NCBI GenBank assembly: GCA_965202585.1
Contig: CBDBBG010000121.1
Coordinates: forward strand, 1 to 64,000
Length of the DNA: 64,000 bases
Reading direction: 5' to 3'
Source: Thalia democratica
Taxonomy: Eukaryota
Shown: piece after piece, positions 33,001-54,000 of the stretch
Layout: each line of letters begins with the position of its first letter
Numbering within the stretch: the stretch's first letter is position 1
Program-made: the position numbers

Positions 33001-36000
33001 TCCAACCAAACAGGCCGACCAAGGTGAGAGAGTGCGGGTGCGAGTGCTTGTGCGACGAGGGTTGGGGCAGGATCGACTGCAGCTGCAGCATGTCGCGGCT
33101 CACGTGCACCTCTCCCGCGGGGGCCATCTGCAGCGGGAAGGGCGTCTGCAAGTGCGGGACCTGCAAGTGCGAGACCGGGTACACCGGGCCCTACTGTACC
33201 GAGTGCATAGAAGGACCTAACAATGTTAGTTGCTTGCAAATATTGTGAATATGTTTGGTTTTTAAATCGTTGTGTTTTAAGAAGTCAATAAAATATTAAT
33301 TTTGGCTGAACTTTTTTTTTTGTTCTTTTGTTTTGACTGTTTACAAGTTAATTTGAAAATAAAGGTGTTTGATTATATGTATAACAAATGAAAATAACAT
33401 TTAAAAACTTTATCTGCAACTTTTTAATGAATTGTAGATTTAAGCAAATGAAAATTTTACAACTTTTGTTTATTTTAATAACAAAATAAAAACTTTAACT
33501 GGCATCTAAAATATTTTAAGTTAAGTTACAAAAATTTATAAACTGGAATAGAACTCTTTAAACAAAGTTTAGACATAAAAAAATGTGTTTGTAGAGAACT
33601 TTTACAAAAAGTGTATCTAATCTATATATTCATACTCAAACGACAATATAATACAAACTGAAAAATATAAAGTGGTACAAAAGTTTTACAAAACCTAAGT
33701 TTTGTTTCACTTTAACCCAACTATGCTTTACACAGGAATGTCCAAGCTGTGACAAGTTTGAGAACTGCGTCAAATGCACCATGCACGGTACCGGACCTCT
33801 GCGAGAAAGCTGCGCGGAATCGTGCCCTCATCCCATACAAGCAGCAGATGTTTACTCACTCGACGACGGTTGGTCTGCAGAATAATTACTCATGCGTGCA
33901 ATAATCTATTTGAACTTGAAAGTTTACTTTGAACAAAAATGTGAACAAAAAGTTTTTTAACAACTAGCTAAACCAATTTTTTTTTATTTCAATTGAGTTA
34001 CCCAACAACGCATAAAACTTTAAACCAATATATAAACATATATTTTTTTAAACTAATATTTTGACATTGAATTTTGTAGAAGTACTTGACCGTGTGAAGA
34101 ATAATTAACTTCTTTTACGCTTTAGCATTCAATGAAATAAAATATCACCCGGAAATAAGGCACACGTTAACGAAGTGTAAAATTTATTATCAATTTGCAG
34201 AGGAAGCAGATAAAAGGGGTATGACGCTGTGCAGTAAAACTGACCCGCTTGACGACTGTGCTTTTTACTACGAGTTTGCCACCATCGGAGATGACGAGTA
34301 CACTATCATTGCTGAGAAAAATAAACGTTTGTATTATATGTATTTGGTTCTGTTTAGATTTGTTCAGTTTTGTAAATAATCGCATATACTAAAACAATTT
34401 TTGATAAAAGTGTTTTGACGTTAGAAATATGTTATAAACAGTAAAAAATAAAAAATTGTTTGTAAAGTTTTACGTGAAAAAGAATTCTTTTTGAAATGAA
34501 ACTTTTGTATTGTTTCGTTGTTTTTAAGACACGAAAAACTTAATAACAGATTAATTGAACTTTTGTTTAAATTGTAAACTTTAACGTTTTTACATTGCTT
34601 GACACAAAACCGATTTTTTTTTTATAAAAGCAATAAAATAAAGTTAACTCTAAAGTCCTTTTCTATTTAAACTAAAAATCTATTCAACAGTAATGTAAAC
34701 AAAACAAACCATTTTAAGACTTTGGAAATTTAAAGTTAAAATTTATTTAGATTAATTATTCTACTCTCTACTAAACATTCTTTTTTTTTTCGTCAAAATT
34801 TCATTTGAGCAATGTAGTTGTCAATAAACCAAGTAACTTACAAACAAAACATTCCCTTCAGGTTGCAGGAAATCATACTCCTTGTTGATAATCCTGTGGT
34901 GCGTCCTTCTCTTCCTCCTCATCGGGTTGATCCTCCTCTGCTGCTGGAGGTGCTGCGTGTACGTCATAGACAAGGAAAAGGAGAAAACGTTTTTGAAGGA
35001 GAACATTCCATTACCGACACTCATACCCCTCGTTCCTACTATTGGCGCAGGTTTATTTTTATTTATACAAATTTTAAATAAAAGCTTAACTAGTTAAAAA
35101 ATTTGTTTTAAATTTTTTCGGACATATTTAAAAAACCTTTTTCTTTTTTTTTTTAATGAACAACCACATTATTTTATTTACTACGTAAATAGTAATGTTT
35201 GAAATGTTGAATAGTAATGTTTGAAAAAGTCTTTTTAAATGTTATTTGTAAATATCTAGGAAGCGTGATTGAGTTCATCAAAGCCAAGTACCTGATGAGA
35301 AAGAGCGACAAGGTGGCAATCATCCCTGTAAGAAGAAGTTTTACTCGCGGGGAAACCCGGCTCAACTACCGCACTTACAAAGGTTTGGCGGGAAGTTGTA
35401 ATAACTTATTAATTTTTCAATATGTAAGCTAAAATCTAACTTTTACTAATAAGTAACTTATTACACTAGTTGTTTTGAATATTACCGGTTCATTTATCTT
35501 TAAATGTTTTATTGTTAACGATGTTTCAGTTGTTGTTGAGCTGATTATACTTTTGTTAACCTTTGCACTAGATATACATTTTTTTAATTTTACACTTATC
35601 AACATCGTTGAACATTAGTGCATTGGTATTGCTTTAAGTTTGTATTAATCAATTTCATCACAGGTTCTGCTGAAGACAACGATTTTGAAGTTTTGAGTCA
35701 AGGTGAGGAAGGAACCATGATCAGAAAACGAATCATGTCAAGAGAAAGGTTATTTGCTTTAAATGAAAGTATAAACTGTTTTCTTGTTTAATGCTGTATA
35801 GTTTTTAAATTCTAACTGTTAGACTAACAGTACGGAAAATAAGAATATGATAAAACCGAAAAAAAACTATTAGTTGATTCTATTATCATGATGCAATGAA
35901 ATTTTATCACCGTCTTAAAAAGGAGTGAAAAGATCTAACAAGGTTCCTATATTAAAAATTAATCATAACTAAAATTTATCAGTGCAAGCCAACAAGAGTC

Positions 36001-51000: not shown

Positions 51001-54000
51001 TTTGTCAACTGTTTAGTAGAACGACTAGTATCACTTGTCAAATATTTTTTTCCAAATAATCTACAACTATCGATAATAAATAATTTACAAAATACTAAAC
51101 TATTAAATCGTGTATTTTAGAATTGTTATTACCTGTCAAGCAGTTTCGTCGTATAAAATAGCTAATTATTGAATAACCTAAACACAGCTCGCGGTGAACT
51201 TTCGTTCGAGGCGGACAACGCCAGTTTCAACCAATCAGACGGAAGCATCACCCTTCCAGTCCACCGCAGCAAGGACCAGAGCGGCATAGTGACGGCGTTC
51301 TGGCAGGCGAGGGGAATGCCCGGTAAACCGAGGTGCAGATACGAGGGAATGAACGGTACCGTTGTCTTCAATGATGGGGAAAGTGTTAAAGGTGATTGTT
51401 TTAATTGATGCGTACAAAAACGTTTTTATTATTATGAACGGTGAGGTGGTGTTTAATAATGGTGAAAGTTTGTAAAGTGATTGTTAATTTTGTTTTTTTT
51501 TATCTGGAGAAATATTCACAACTTTCATTGATAGTTAGTTATACTAAGAACATCAATGTTATTCAAACTGTAAAATGGTTCAGAAAAACAACATTATAAA
51601 AAACTTAATGACTTCTTTAATGGCTGAATTTAAAAATAGTCCGTTGTGGTTTAATTCTATTAATAAACTAATTTGTAAACATTTTCAATATTAACAGATA
51701 TAACAATCAAGTTGGTGCCACAAGTTCAATCAGTGACTACCGACCACGTGGTACTCGAAATTGATCCACCTAGTGGTAGAGCCTTGTTAGGGGAATACCC
51801 TGATTGCTCCGTAGTAATCAACAACGACGTTTGTGAGTAAAAAACAGCTTTTGTTGAACTTAGATAGAAAAAAAGTTCTAACTTATAAAACACAAGGCTA
51901 CTCAAGAATTTTTATAGAAAAAAGAATAATGATCAATAACAGAAAACTTGTTTTGTTACGTAATATATAGATGTTTTTTATAGTGTTTTACTTTAAAACT
52001 CGTTTTTTTATCACTTGTTAAATAATTTCAATGGTGTAAAATGTTATAAAGTAAACAAATTATCTTGAATGTAACATTTATTAAATATTTTTTAAAGTTT
52101 AAACATTTTAAACTTCAGTCCCAGGAAACTTCAGTTTGGAGCACAGTGACTACAAGTTCCAACAGAGCGAGGGTAAAGGAATTGTTAAAGTTTTGAGAAC
52201 TGAAGGAAAACGCGGCAATGTTTCACTCTCTTGGAAGGTTTTGATTGTTTATCATTAAAACTACAAACTATCTCAAGTTTTGTGAGAGATCTTAAAAAAA
52301 ATTTTTTTTTAATAAATAGTCATGTTTCAAAAATTAACATTTTCTTGTTTTTAAACACATTAGTTTATAAAATAAGTAAATAAACAAAGTTGAAACAACA
52401 TTGAGCTGCTTTGTAAATTTTAAGGAAGTTGTACTAACATAGAACACTAAAAATAACTATTTTAGTTACAATGTTTCTCTATAAATTGGTTTAAACAAAA
52501 TTTAAAGTTACTTTTAACTTTTCAAAACTTTTGCAAATACTAATTTTCACATTAATTGTTTGCAATAAGTTATGATAAAAACATCCCATTCAGATCGTAC
52601 CAGCTTCAGATGCTGCTTCATTCTCCACTATGATTGGACAAAACGGAACAATTGAGTTTGAAGACGAACAAAGCTTCGGTGAAATTGAAATAAAATTCCC
52701 TGAAGACACAGTCGAGGAACAAGAAGAGTTAGTTTATTTTGTTTTAATAGACTATTTTTTGACATTTAAACTTTGTAAAGCAAGTATATTTAGAGTGATA
52801 CTTTTGTAATACATCACTTGCTTAGCTTTTTTCATCTAGACTATATGTTTAATAAGAAAAAGAGTTACAAGTGGCGCTGTTGTATTATTCTGGATGATTA
52901 TGACAATTAATTACTTATCATTACTATAACAAAGTGTTGTATTAGATTTTGACAAAGTGTTTCAATCAACAGAGTGATGATAATGCTTCTGCCACCCGAC
53001 GGAAGAGCTGACCTTTTGGACCCATACAAATCACATTTACTGGTGGACAACGACCTCCAGTGTTCAATCAATTTCACATCTGATGTTTATAACATTCGTG
53101 GAGATGTGGACAGCTTTTTGTTGCCGCTTGTGAGGGACGGACCCAAGTACAGACCCATCACCGTCGCGTATAAAACTATAGGTGATTAAGTTTATTGTAA
53201 AGACCATTTAAAATTGTAAAAATTTTATAATAAGTCATGTTTTTATTACTTTATTGCATTGAACTAACTAAGGTATTAATATTATTTTGTAACGGCACAA
53301 AACCTGAGATTCTTAATTACAATTGTTTTTAAATTAAAATTTAACTTAATTATCATTTTTACATTGTTTAAAACTATTTATTCAAAACCGTACTTACCAT
53401 AAAACTTTTAACAAAAGTAAATCACCACACAATATCACTATAATCAAAAACAGACGGAACAGCTATTGATTGCAAGAATTTCATCGGAGGTGACGGAGAG
53501 GTCGAGTTCGGACCTGGTGAGGTGAAAAAGGATATTTTGCTGCCTGTTATGAACGACAACCAGGGAGGTGTACTCACATTCAGCTGTCAATTGACCAACG
53601 TGCAGAGCGGAGGTCCCGGAAAGATCGGTGTCATCGGGGACTGCACTGTCAATATTGAGAACATTCCTGGTCAGTTCTAATAAAATGTTTTAAAATAACG
53701 AGATATTGATAGTTTGCGCGTTAACCAGTTTTTTTGTCATTCATACTCAATTGACGAATTTTTACTTTCAAACGACAAAAATTGTGATGTGAATTTATTC
53801 CTTTAACTGTTTAAAAGCTTTCTTATTTGATTACTTTTATCTACAAAAAGTATCTGAAAACTACAAAACAAAAACATAGGCTGAATTGTTTCACATTTAA
53901 CCGTAATTTACTGTCTTTACAATATCAATATAAAAGTATCCTTCCAAATATCTAATATTTTTATTTTAACAGCTGCCGGTCGCGTGGATATGTCATCTCC

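What the first reader, a model, noticed from the sequence alone, without database searches (positions are those of the whole stretch)
35260..53669. Five-domain super-repeat in the proximal Calx-beta array
Seen: a Pro-rich linker precedes domains 1, 6 and 11 (IPLPTLIPLVPT; VPVIPVGLAPT; EAAPMPQS), and those same three domains carry large inserts. Domains 2, 7 and 12 share D(H/A)G(I/T)(I/L/V)GF..DG.(V/I)..W, and 2 and 7 both start with a 194-nt exon ending F..(G/N)Q. Domains 4 and 9 share EPG.F.FSKP..R..G(S/T)DG....PW. Domains 3 and 8 share VQF.K..YP..LRT. Inference: the tail grew by ancient block duplication of a 5-domain cassette, which suggests a repeating binding register along the rod.
Basis: partly seen in the sequence, partly recalled or inferred. 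Interest (0 to 1): 0.65.

Follow-up and report, generated by a model that had tools for sequence, protein, structure and literature searches.

The report
Five-domain cassette repeated in integrin tail
The inner tail of an unusually large integrin beta gene is built from a block of five Calx-beta domains copied at least twice long ago, which is an ordinary way for repeat proteins to grow, seen here in an unusual gene.

Summary
Window 35260-53669 (+ strand) encodes 15 Calx-beta domains in about 34 exons. They lie directly downstream of an integrin beta ectodomain and its transmembrane exon, so they form the membrane-proximal part of a beta4-like cytoplasmic tail.

- **D1-5 against D6-10:** the in-register pairing is the best of 120 possible pairings.
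- **Periodicity:** similarity peaks at lags 5 and 10, and 0 of 20000 label shuffles reach the observed value.
- **ML tree of all 25 domains:** it recovers {1,6,11}, {2,7,(12)}, {3,8}, {4,9,(14)} and {5,10,15}.
- **Introns:** D2/D7 and D3/D8 share exact intron position and phase.

The third cassette is only partial. D13 groups with distal domains, and {3,8,13} is rejected at AU p=0.032. D12 and D14 attach weakly.

No nucleotide similarity remains between the blocks, so the duplication is ancient.

Block duplication is therefore supported. The "repeating binding register" is untested. Multi-domain duplication is a well-known mechanism (PMC1553488), so the finding itself is ordinary. The gene architecture, with at least 25 cytoplasmic Calx-beta domains, is the more notable part.

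The parts
34837..35050 (+). Exon (ORF-limited start) holding the integrin beta transmembrane helix, the membrane-proximal 'W-RCCVYVIDKEKEK' segment and Pro-rich linker L1 (IPLPTLIPLVPTIGA, about 34999-35050). It ends in phase 1.
   Evidence: ORF and splice model. 8 of the 9 PDB sequence matches are integrin beta-6, beta-3 and beta-2 TM/juxtamembrane segments, with weak E-values of 0.03-0.56.
35260..36534 (+). D1, type A. Exons 35260-35382, 35664-35702, 36003-36183 (alternative: 35664-35748 plus 35983-36183) and 36380-36534. Carries a large acidic insert on separate exons.
   Evidence: No Pfam hit. Matches the window-derived HMM at E 5e-9 and 2e-13.
36752..37766 (+). D2, type B. A 194-nt exon 36752-36945 (phase 1 to 0) plus the first part of exon 37623-37812.
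   Evidence: PF03160 at 42.9 bits.
37767..38713 (+). D3, type C. Starts inside exon 37623-37812 with no boundary intron, then exons 38160-38281 and 38539-38713.
   Evidence: PF03160 at 30.1 and 22.8 bits.
39788..40832 (+). D4, type D. Exons 39788-39946 and 40665-40832 (the acceptor could instead be at 40647).
   Evidence: Reciprocal best BLAST hit with D9 (48 bits). No Pfam hit.
41212..42477 (+). D5, type E, the end of cassette 1. Exons 41212-41370 and 42295-42477, followed by a 1746-nt phase-1 intron.
   Evidence: PF03160 at 29.7 and 20.3 bits.
44224..45399 (+). Linker L6 (PVIPVGLAPT) plus D6, type A. Exons 44224-44315, 44708-44911 (holds a 45-residue insert) and 45210-45399.
   Evidence: No Pfam hit.
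45631..46266 (+). D7, type B. A 194-nt exon 45631-45824 (phase 1 to 0) plus exon 46122-46266.
   Evidence: PF03160 at 50.4 bits. Exons 2a and 7a are reciprocal best hits at 62 bits.
46653..47364 (+). D8, type C. Exons 46653-46819 and 47166-47364. Its internal intron has the same column and phase as in D3.
   Evidence: PF03160 at 33.7 bits.
47641..47964 (+). D9, type D. The only proximal domain on a single exon.
   Evidence: AF2 model with pLDDT 95.2. Foldseek TM 0.83 to the integrin beta4 Calx-beta domain 3FQ4.
48265..48846 (+). D10, type E, the end of cassette 2. Exons 48265-48429 and 48679-48846.
   Evidence: PF03160 at 18.8 bits.
48906..48947 (+). 42-nt micro-exon with linker L11 (ITLQGEAAPMPQS).
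   Evidence: Splice model only. Too short to search.
49177..49892 (+). D11, type A. Exons 49177-49473 (holds a 45-residue insert) and 49722-49892.
   Evidence: Exon pairs 1a/11a and 1b/11b are reciprocal best hits. No Pfam hit.
50116..50628 (+). D12, type B-like. Exons 50116-50256 and 50428-50628. Its intron position differs from that of D2/D7.
   Evidence: The best hits of exon 12a are 2a and 7a. PF03160 at 29.9 bits.
51188..51832 (+). D13. Holds cassette position 3 but is not type C; it groups with distal domains.
   Evidence: AU test p=0.032 against {3,8,13}.
52119..53057 (+). D14, weakly type D. Exons 52119-52237, 52594-52727 and the first part of 52973-53181. Its intron pattern resembles that of distal D18 and D22.
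   Evidence: {4,9,14} has support 71/84 in the ML tree.
53058..53669 (+). D15, type E, the end of cassette 3. The rest of exon 52973-53181 plus exon 53454-53669.
   Evidence: {5,10,15} has support 87/71. PF03160 at 22.6 bits.

Best explanation
The region encodes the membrane-proximal 15 Calx-beta domains of the cytoplasmic tail of an integrin beta subunit with a beta4-like layout.

The array grew by ancient intragenic tandem duplication of a cassette made of a Pro-rich linker plus five different domain types (A-B-C-D-E).
- D1-5 and D6-10 are two full copies.
- D11-15 is a third copy that was later remodelled. Positions 1 and 5 keep their type, and positions 2 and 4 keep it weakly.
- Position 3 (D13) is now a domain of the kind found in the distal array.

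The cassette is bounded by phase-1 introns, so unequal crossing-over within introns would copy it without breaking the frame.

Shown here: the register, the tree, the shared introns and the phases. Inferred: the crossing-over mechanism, the cytoplasmic location (from integrin topology) and that one transcript carries everything.

The likely role of the product is a long rod of beta-sandwich domains linking the integrin to cytoskeletal partners. No function was tested here.
For: Context:
- Pfam, exon by exon, finds PSI_integrin, four Integrin_beta VWA pieces (E 2e-7 to 2e-13), integrin EGF and Integrin_B_tail at 23765-33882 on the same strand.
- The TM-like ORF also carries linker L1.

Register:
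- Mean identity of in-register pairs D1-5 against D6-10 is 0.332, against 0.259 (sd 0.021) over all 120 pairings. It is the best of the 120.
- It is also the best of 120 in the N-terminal half alone.
- In the C-terminal half it is the best of 120 by BLOSUM62 and 2 of 120 by identity.
- Lag profile: 0.298 at lag 5 and 0.278 at lag 10, against 0.217-0.260 at other lags.
- 0 of 20000 label shuffles reach the observed value.
- Cassette 3 is in register with cassette 1 (1 of 120) and cassette 2 (2 of 120) by BLOSUM62.

ML tree, support as ultrafast bootstrap / SH-aLRT:
- {1,6,11} 83/83
- {2,7} 90/84
- {3,8} 96/92
- {4,9} 98/94
- {4,9,14} 71/84
- {5,10,15} 87/71
- Label clustering is as low in 0 of 200 shuffles.

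HMM-free, exon-by-exon BLAST gives reciprocal best hits 2a/7a (62 bits), 2b/7b, 4a/9, 1a/11a and 1b/11b.

Introns:
- D2/D7 share column 64|65, phase 0 and exon length 194 nt.
- D3/D8 share column 55|56, phase 0.
- All four cassette borders are phase 1.

Fold: D9 gives pLDDT 95.2 and TM 0.83 to 3FQ4.
Against: - Exons 3a/3b and 8a/8b are not each other's best BLAST hits.
- NJ bootstraps are modest: {1,6,11} 115/300, {2,7,12} 80/300, {3,8} 93/300.
- {2,7,12} has ML support of only 59/0.
- D13 is excluded from type C (AU p=0.032), and its N-terminal exon is most like 7a and 2a.
- D14 carries the intron pattern of distal D18 and D22.
- The D1/D6/D11 and D4/D9 pairs do not share intron positions.
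- D12's intron differs from that of D2/D7.
- The D5/D10 intron (phase 1, about 3 codons apart) lies at a site common to many domain types.
- The C-terminal halves carry a weaker signal: 711 of 20000 shuffles reach it by identity.
- The inserts share no sequence.
- 5 of 15 domains (D1, D4, D6, D11, D14) have no Pfam Calx-beta hit on any exon.
- There is no transcript evidence for the exon model.
Confidence: 0.75

Rival explanations
1. There was only one cassette duplication (D1-5 and D6-10). D11-15 is not a third copy of the whole cassette. It is a mosaic assembled by smaller duplications, for instance an A-B pair and an E domain copied separately, with D13 and D14 coming from the family that fills the distal array.
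For: - D13 groups with D19, D23, D18 and D22 in the ML tree, and {3,8,13} is rejected.
- Exons 13b and 19b are reciprocal best hits.
- D14 has the D18/D22 intron pattern.
- No intron position of cassette 3 is shared uniquely with cassettes 1 or 2.
- {2,7,12} has support of only 59/0.
Against: - The order A, B, x, D-like, E and a linker in front of D11 are kept.
- The in-register pairing of cassette 3 with cassette 1 is the best of 120, and with cassette 2 it is 2 of 120, by BLOSUM62.
- {4,9,14} (71/84) and {5,10,15} (87/71) are recovered.
Confidence: 0.2
2. The periodicity is functional. Each five-domain cassette offers the same set of binding faces, so the tail acts as a periodic docking rod for a repeating cytoskeletal partner. 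Selection keeps the domain types distinct. It adds to the duplication history and does not exclude it.
For: - The domain types have stayed recognisable although no nucleotide similarity is left.
- In-register conservation is concentrated in the N-terminal half of the domains (0.380 against 0.264) rather than spread evenly.
- Every cassette, proximal or distal, ends in an E-type domain.
Against: - No binding, structural or expression test was possible.
- Shared descent alone predicts the same pattern.
- Cassette 3 lost its C-type domain.
- The inserts and most intron positions are not conserved in register.
- The acidic residues in the windows inspected differ between D3 and D8.
Confidence: 0.15
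3. There was no block duplication. The in-register likeness is chance, or convergence of domains that grew one at a time.
For: - Pairwise identities are low (26-39% in register against a background of about 25%).
- Several exon pairs are not reciprocal best hits.
Against: - The observed pairing is the best of 120, and 0 of 20000 shuffles reach the observed value.
- The tree groups all five types.
- D2/D7 have identical 194-nt exons with the same phases, and D3/D8 share an intron.
- The linker recurs at the cassette starts.
Confidence: 0.03

Closest known systems
Vertebrate integrin beta4 (ITGB4)
   Same: An integrin beta ectodomain and a single TM are followed by a very large cytoplasmic tail that starts with a Calx-beta domain and also holds FnIII domains. 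I read passages of the review PMC4452579. The D9 model is closest by TM-score to the beta4 Calx-beta domain 3FQ4 (0.83). No NPxY motif was seen in the TM exon.
   Different: According to that review, beta4 has one Calx-beta domain and four FnIII domains. This gene has at least 25 Calx-beta domains and at least one FnIII (60240-60649) before the window ends. Orthology could not be tested.
Super-repeats made by multi-domain duplication (nebulin 7-domain unit, titin A-band)
   Same: Similarity peaks at a fixed domain lag, and a repeated exon pattern is partly kept. Bjorklund et al. 2006 (PMC1553488; abstract and passages read) report that domain repeats mostly expand several domains at a time.
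   Different: This case involves Calx-beta domains, only two or three copies, and far more divergence. Most of the exon pattern has been eroded. 'Calx' does not occur in that paper's main text (0 occurrences).
ADGRV1 (VLGR1) and FRAS/FREM Calx-beta arrays
   Same: Long tandem arrays of Calx-beta domains. ADGRV1 has 35 (PMC13729602, passages read).
   Different: Those arrays are extracellular and are linked to GAIN/7TM, LamG and EPTP modules, or to CSPG repeats. None of these modules was seen in the parts of the window I scanned, and the array here follows an integrin TM. That review does not use the words 'duplication' or 'periodic'.
NCX1/CALX CBD1-CBD2
   Same: Cytoplasmic Calx-beta domains in tandem. 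They are the best Foldseek E-values for D9 (2QVK at 9.9e-9, 2DPK at 3.1e-8) and the best sequence match in the PDB (3US9, E 0.0013).
   Different: NCX1/CALX has two domains inside a transporter loop that sense Ca2+. Whether any domain here binds Ca2+ was not tested.

Membership tests
Multi-domain tandem duplication (super-repeat) | Domain similarity peaks at a lag equal to the unit size | tested here: met
   Lag 5 gives 0.298 and lag 10 gives 0.278, against 0.217-0.260 at other lags. 0 of 20000 shuffles reach the observed value.
Multi-domain tandem duplication (super-repeat) | In-register domains group together in a tree of all domains | tested here: met
   The ML tree gives {1,6,11} 83/83, {2,7} 90/84, {3,8} 96/92, {4,9} 98/94 and {5,10,15} 87/71. 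The exception is D13, with {3,8,13} rejected at p=0.032.
Multi-domain tandem duplication (super-repeat) | The exon and intron pattern is repeated in each unit | tested here: inconclusive
   2 of 5 pairs between cassettes 1 and 2 share a unique intron position and phase (D2/D7, D3/D8). D5/D10 are near each other at a common site. D1/D6 and D4/D9 differ. Cassette 3 shares none uniquely.
Calx-beta domain (PF03160) | Match to the Pfam model | tested here: inconclusive
   13 of 31 proximal exon pieces match at E<=0.01, and 6 of them exceed the 27-bit cut-off. 10 of 15 domains have at least one hit. D1, D4, D6, D11 and D14 have none. Domains were searched exon by exon, which lowers the scores.
Calx-beta domain (PF03160) | Calx-beta beta-sandwich fold | tested here: met
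   Tested for D9 only, because it is the only single-exon domain. pLDDT 95.2; TM 0.83 to 3FQ4 and 0.78-0.81 to NCX1 CBD1 and CBD2.
Calx-beta domain (PF03160) | Acidic Ca2+-binding cluster | not tested
   Only acidic counts in four column windows were listed. The site positions are recalled from memory and were not mapped.
Integrin beta4-type subunit | Integrin beta ectodomain (PSI, beta-I/VWA, EGF, beta-tail) | tested here: met
   8 of 10 upstream ORF pieces match the corresponding Pfam models.
Integrin beta4-type subunit | A single TM followed by a long cytoplasmic tail with Calx-beta and FnIII domains | tested here: met
   The TM ORF aligns weakly to integrin beta-6, beta-3 and beta-2 TM segments (E 0.03-0.56) and continues into linker L1. 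The array and one fn3 piece (E 0.0035) follow on the same strand. The domain numbers differ greatly from beta4.
Integrin beta4-type subunit | Orthology to vertebrate ITGB4, and one transcript carrying all parts | not testable with these tools
   The protein databases that cover eukaryotes were closed, and no RNA data were available.
ADGRV1 / FRAS-FREM extracellular arrays | GAIN/7TM, LamG and EPTP modules, or CSPG repeats, beside the array | tested here: not met
   Pfam scans of the flanking pieces gave integrin models only. The window ends inside the gene, so the 3' part is unseen.

The most novel reading that the evidence does not exclude
The cytoplasmic tail of this integrin is a periodic ruler. 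Each linker plus five Calx-beta cassette would present the same ordered set of faces, with a flexible acidic insert in the first domain. Together the cassettes would dock a periodic cytoskeletal partner, possibly in a Ca2+-dependent way. This would be a hemidesmosome-like anchor built on a different principle from the single Calx-beta and four FnIII domains of vertebrate beta4.

The possible match between cassette length and filament periodicity comes from my own recollection and was not computed.
Probability: 0.1. Interest if true: 0.75.

Novelty: new member of a known kind. Interest (0 to 1): 0.35.

Why it matters
The super-repeat is a textbook product of multi-domain duplication. Its main use is for annotation:
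- It gives a domain-type code (A-B-C-D-E) for a very long and hard-to-model gene.
- It shows that the array grew in blocks bounded by phase-1 introns.

The gene is more interesting than the repeat. An integrin beta subunit whose cytoplasmic tail carries at least 25 Calx-beta domains would extend the beta4-type design far beyond the vertebrate form. It bears on how integrins were first coupled to the cytoskeleton.

Five literature searches found no description of such a gene. Sequence databases of eukaryotes could not be searched, so it may already be annotated elsewhere.

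Tried and rejected
- **Nucleotide comparison of the blocks** (blastn, word size 7). It found only short AT-rich intron matches out of register, so there is no DNA-level trace of the duplication.
- **Tandem Repeats Finder**. It found nothing in the array except a 28-nt intronic repeat.
- **Smith-Waterman comparison of the three inserts against 500 shuffles**. No pair stood out. The best, D6 against D11, was reached by 54 of 500 shuffles.
- **NJ trees on half-domains**. They were too noisy to resolve most groups.
- **Pfam on type-A exons**. 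No hits, so their assignment as Calx-beta-like rests on the window-derived HMM only.
- **Literature searches for an invertebrate integrin with a Calx-beta array, or a Calx-beta super-repeat**. Nothing specific came up.
- **Rejected idea:** that the array is an extracellular ADGRV1- or FREM-like protein. The integrin TM ORF runs directly into linker L1.
- **Not used:** the scan of genome contigs (prokaryotes only), the ESM Atlas (the family is already known) and complex prediction (no binding claim is made).

Full report
**Context.**
The window is AT-rich (about 22-35% G+C in 2-kb bins) and has no N. I do not take it for human.

On the + strand, ORF pieces from 23765 to 33882 match integrin models when scanned one by one (8 of 10 pieces):
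- PSI_integrin
- Integrin_beta VWA (four pieces, E 2e-7 to 2e-13)
- integrin EGF / EGF_2
- Integrin_B_tail

ORF 34837-35094 holds a hydrophobic stretch followed by W-RCCVYVIDKEKEK. Eight of its nine PDB sequence matches are the TM/juxtamembrane segment of integrin beta-6, beta-3 or beta-2, though the E-values are weak (0.03-0.56). The same ORF runs on into 'IPLPTLIPLVPT'. The Calx-beta array that follows is therefore best read as the cytoplasmic tail of an integrin beta subunit, which is the beta4 type of layout. This topology, and the assumption of a single transcript, are inferences.

**Domain and exon map.**
An HMM grown from the single-exon domain 9 finds 25 domains from 35260 to about 63790. 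An fn3-like piece lies at 60240-60649, between D21 and D22.

Exon-by-exon Pfam scans hit PF03160 in 13 of 31 proximal pieces, 6 of them above the 27-bit cut-off. That covers 10 of 15 domains. D1, D4, D6, D11 and D14 have no hit.

D9, the only domain on one exon, folds with pLDDT 95.2. It matches the integrin beta4 Calx-beta domain 3FQ4 (TM 0.83, rmsd 2.4) and NCX1 CBD1/CBD2 (E about 1e-8).

The spliced protein was never joined for any search or fold. All searches were made exon by exon.

All are present:
- the three linkers, although L11 has only 2 P in 13 residues
- the inserts in D1, D6 and D11, all in the same loop
- the D2/7/12 motif
- the two 194-nt exons 36752-36945 and 45631-45824, both phase 1 to 0, ending NFADGQ and TFLHNQ
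- the D4/9 motif
- the D3/8 motif

The inserts share composition (acidic, Ser/Thr-rich) but no significant sequence similarity. The best pair is reached by 54 of 500 shuffles.

**Is the register real?**
Per-exon alignments to the HMM were pooled by column for comparison. In-register identities, against a shuffled mean of 25%, are:

| Type | Pairs (percent identity) |
|---|---|
| A | 1/6 33, 1/11 35, 6/11 30 |
| B | 2/7 39, 2/12 32, 7/12 31 |
| C | 3/8 31, 3/13 21, 8/13 18 |
| D | 4/9 33, 4/14 23, 9/14 26 |
| E | 5/10 29, 5/15 27, 10/15 26 |

Further tests:
- The in-register pairing of D1-5 with D6-10 is the best of all 120 pairings, by identity and by BLOSUM62.
- It is also the best in the N-terminal half alone. 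In the C-terminal half it is the best of 120 by BLOSUM62 and 2 of 120 by identity.
- Mean identity by lag peaks at 5 (0.298) and 10 (0.278). Other lags give 0.217-0.260.
- 0 of 20000 label shuffles reach the lag-5/10 value for all columns.
- The C-terminal half is weaker: 711 of 20000 shuffles by identity and 100 of 20000 by BLOSUM62.
- Cassette 3 pairs in register with cassette 1 (4 of 120 by identity, 1 of 120 by BLOSUM62) and with cassette 2 (11 of 120 and 2 of 120).

**Trees.**
The NJ tree of 25 domains contains {1,6,11}, {2,7,12}, {3,8}, {4,9} and {5,10,15}. Bootstrap counts out of 300 are 115, 80, 93, 280 and 137.

The ML tree (IQ-TREE, LG+C20) gives the following support (ultrafast bootstrap / SH-aLRT):

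| Group | Support |
|---|---|
| {1,6,11} | 83/83 |
| {2,7} | 90/84 |
| {2,7,12} | 59/0 |
| {3,8} | 96/92 |
| {4,9} | 98/94 |
| {4,9,14} | 71/84 |
| {5,10} | 84/59 |
| {5,10,15} | 87/71 |

The E group is sister to D17, D21 and D25 (87/85).

D13 lies among the distal domains. Forcing {3,8,13} costs 14.2 log-likelihood units (AU p=0.032).

**HMM-free check.**
Exon-by-exon blastp gives these reciprocal best hits:
- 2a/7a (62 bits)
- 2b/7b
- 4a/9 (48 bits)
- 1a/11a
- 1b/11b

The best hits of 12a are 2a and 7a, and the best hit of 14a is D9.

Results against the register:
- 3a, 3b, 8a and 8b are not each other's best hits.
- 4b does not list D9 among its top five.
- The best hits of 13a are 7a and 2a.
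- 13b pairs with 19b.

**Introns.**
- D2 and D7 share column 64|65, phase 0.
- D3 and D8 share column 55|56, phase 0, four residues before the conserved F.
- D5 and D10 both have a phase-1 intron about three codons apart, at a site also used by D4, D11, D20, D21, D24 and D25.
- D4 has an internal intron and D9 has none.
- The type-A domains share no intron position.
- D12 (column 46-48, phase 1) differs from D2/D7.
- D14 has the pattern of distal D18 and D22: phase 0 near column 39-53, phase 2 near column 83-86, and no intron at the next domain border.
- All cassette borders (TM|L1, D5|L6, D10|L11, D15|D16) are phase 1.

**Age.**
blastn between the blocks finds nothing in register. With 26-39% amino-acid identity, the duplication is ancient.

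**Reading.**
The best account has three parts:
- A cassette of linker plus A-B-C-D-E domains was duplicated in tandem within the gene. Phase-1 introns at its borders kept the frame.
- D1-5 and D6-10 are full copies.
- D11-15 is a third copy with position 3 replaced or remodelled and positions 2 and 4 diverged.

A mosaic origin for D11-15 cannot be excluded.

Across the whole array, every unit ends in an E-type domain (D5, D10, D15, D17, D21, D25).

The idea of a repeating binding register is compatible with the stronger in-register conservation of the N-terminal halves. No test made here separates it from plain shared descent.

**Comparison.**
Multi-domain duplication is the commonest mode of repeat growth, for example the nebulin unit of seven domains (PMC1553488; abstract and passages read).

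According to a review of which I read passages (PMC4452579), the vertebrate beta4 tail has one Calx-beta and four FnIII domains.

ADGRV1 has 35 extracellular Calx-beta repeats (PMC13729602, passages read).

Five searches found no paper describing an integrin with a Calx-beta array. One search found no Calx-beta super-repeat. From those searches I saw listings and abstract openings only, apart from the papers named above, PMC11670116 (passages) and PMC7390872 (one passage). Supplements were not consulted.

**Limits.**
- There is no transcript evidence.
- The D1 insert exons and the D4 and D7 acceptors have alternatives.
- Domain rows for the trees were pooled from exon-wise alignments and omit split codons and inserts.

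Noticed in passing
window 23765-64000 (+): The whole right-hand 40 kb is one integrin beta gene: PSI, beta-I/VWA, EGF repeats, beta-tail, TM, then at least 25 Calx-beta domains and one FnIII. The gene runs off the end of the window.
   Followed up: partly
window 56020-63790 (+): The distal array has its own four-domain super-repeat, D18-21 / FnIII / D22-25. In-register identities are 45, 38, 50 and 43%. {20,24} has support 100/96 and {21,25} 99/96 in the ML tree. D18 and D22 share their intron pattern. A linker (KTQEILVQRPWSPDVNVA) precedes D18.
   Followed up: partly
window about 56995-57005 and about 60320-60330 (+): There are two apparent +1/-1 frame changes inside coding sequence, with no room for an intron. 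One is at the D18/D19 junction beside a short run of A. The other is inside the FnIII piece ('WSAPEAGG' in one frame, 'SGYRVSYWDK' in another). They could be assembly indels or real lesions.
   Followed up: partly
window about 51431-51465 (+): A diverged copy of the 3' end of exon 13a lies about 40 nt into the following intron. It reads 'MNGEVVFNNGES' against the exon's 'MNGTVVFNDGES', in another frame, and is followed by GTTTGT. It may be a relic of a small tandem duplication or an alternative 3' end.
   Followed up: partly
window 52728-52806 (+): The ORF of exon 14b reads on past the chosen donor (52727) into 'LVYFVLID', which also fits the Calx-beta 'E.F.V.L' pattern. The chosen splice gives 'EVMIMLLPPDG', close to 'EFVMVLLPSDDG' in D9. 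An alternative donor is possible.
   Followed up: no
51 modelled introns, window 35050-63623: The splice signals are unusual. The donor has T at +3 in 26 of 51 introns, and GTTTGT is the commonest hexamer (8 of 51). The acceptor is ACAG in 26 of 51, with A/T-rich sequence and no pyrimidine tract upstream. Median intron length is 296 nt. My scoring favoured these forms, so the counts for the distal introns lean that way.
   Followed up: partly
window 4070-7919 (-): A membrane dipeptidase gene (Peptidase_M19). 5 of 6 ORF pieces match in the model's order, with E down to 4e-22.
   Followed up: yes
window 25087-25530: A 221-bp unit repeated twice at 92% identity, lying in an intron of the integrin gene.
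   Followed up: no
D5, D15, D17, D21, D25 (HMM columns about 75-79): E-type domains share an 'NDP(S/N)G'-like motif (YNDPN, MNDNQ, ANDPSG, FNDPSG, TNDPSG). D10 lacks it.
   Followed up: no
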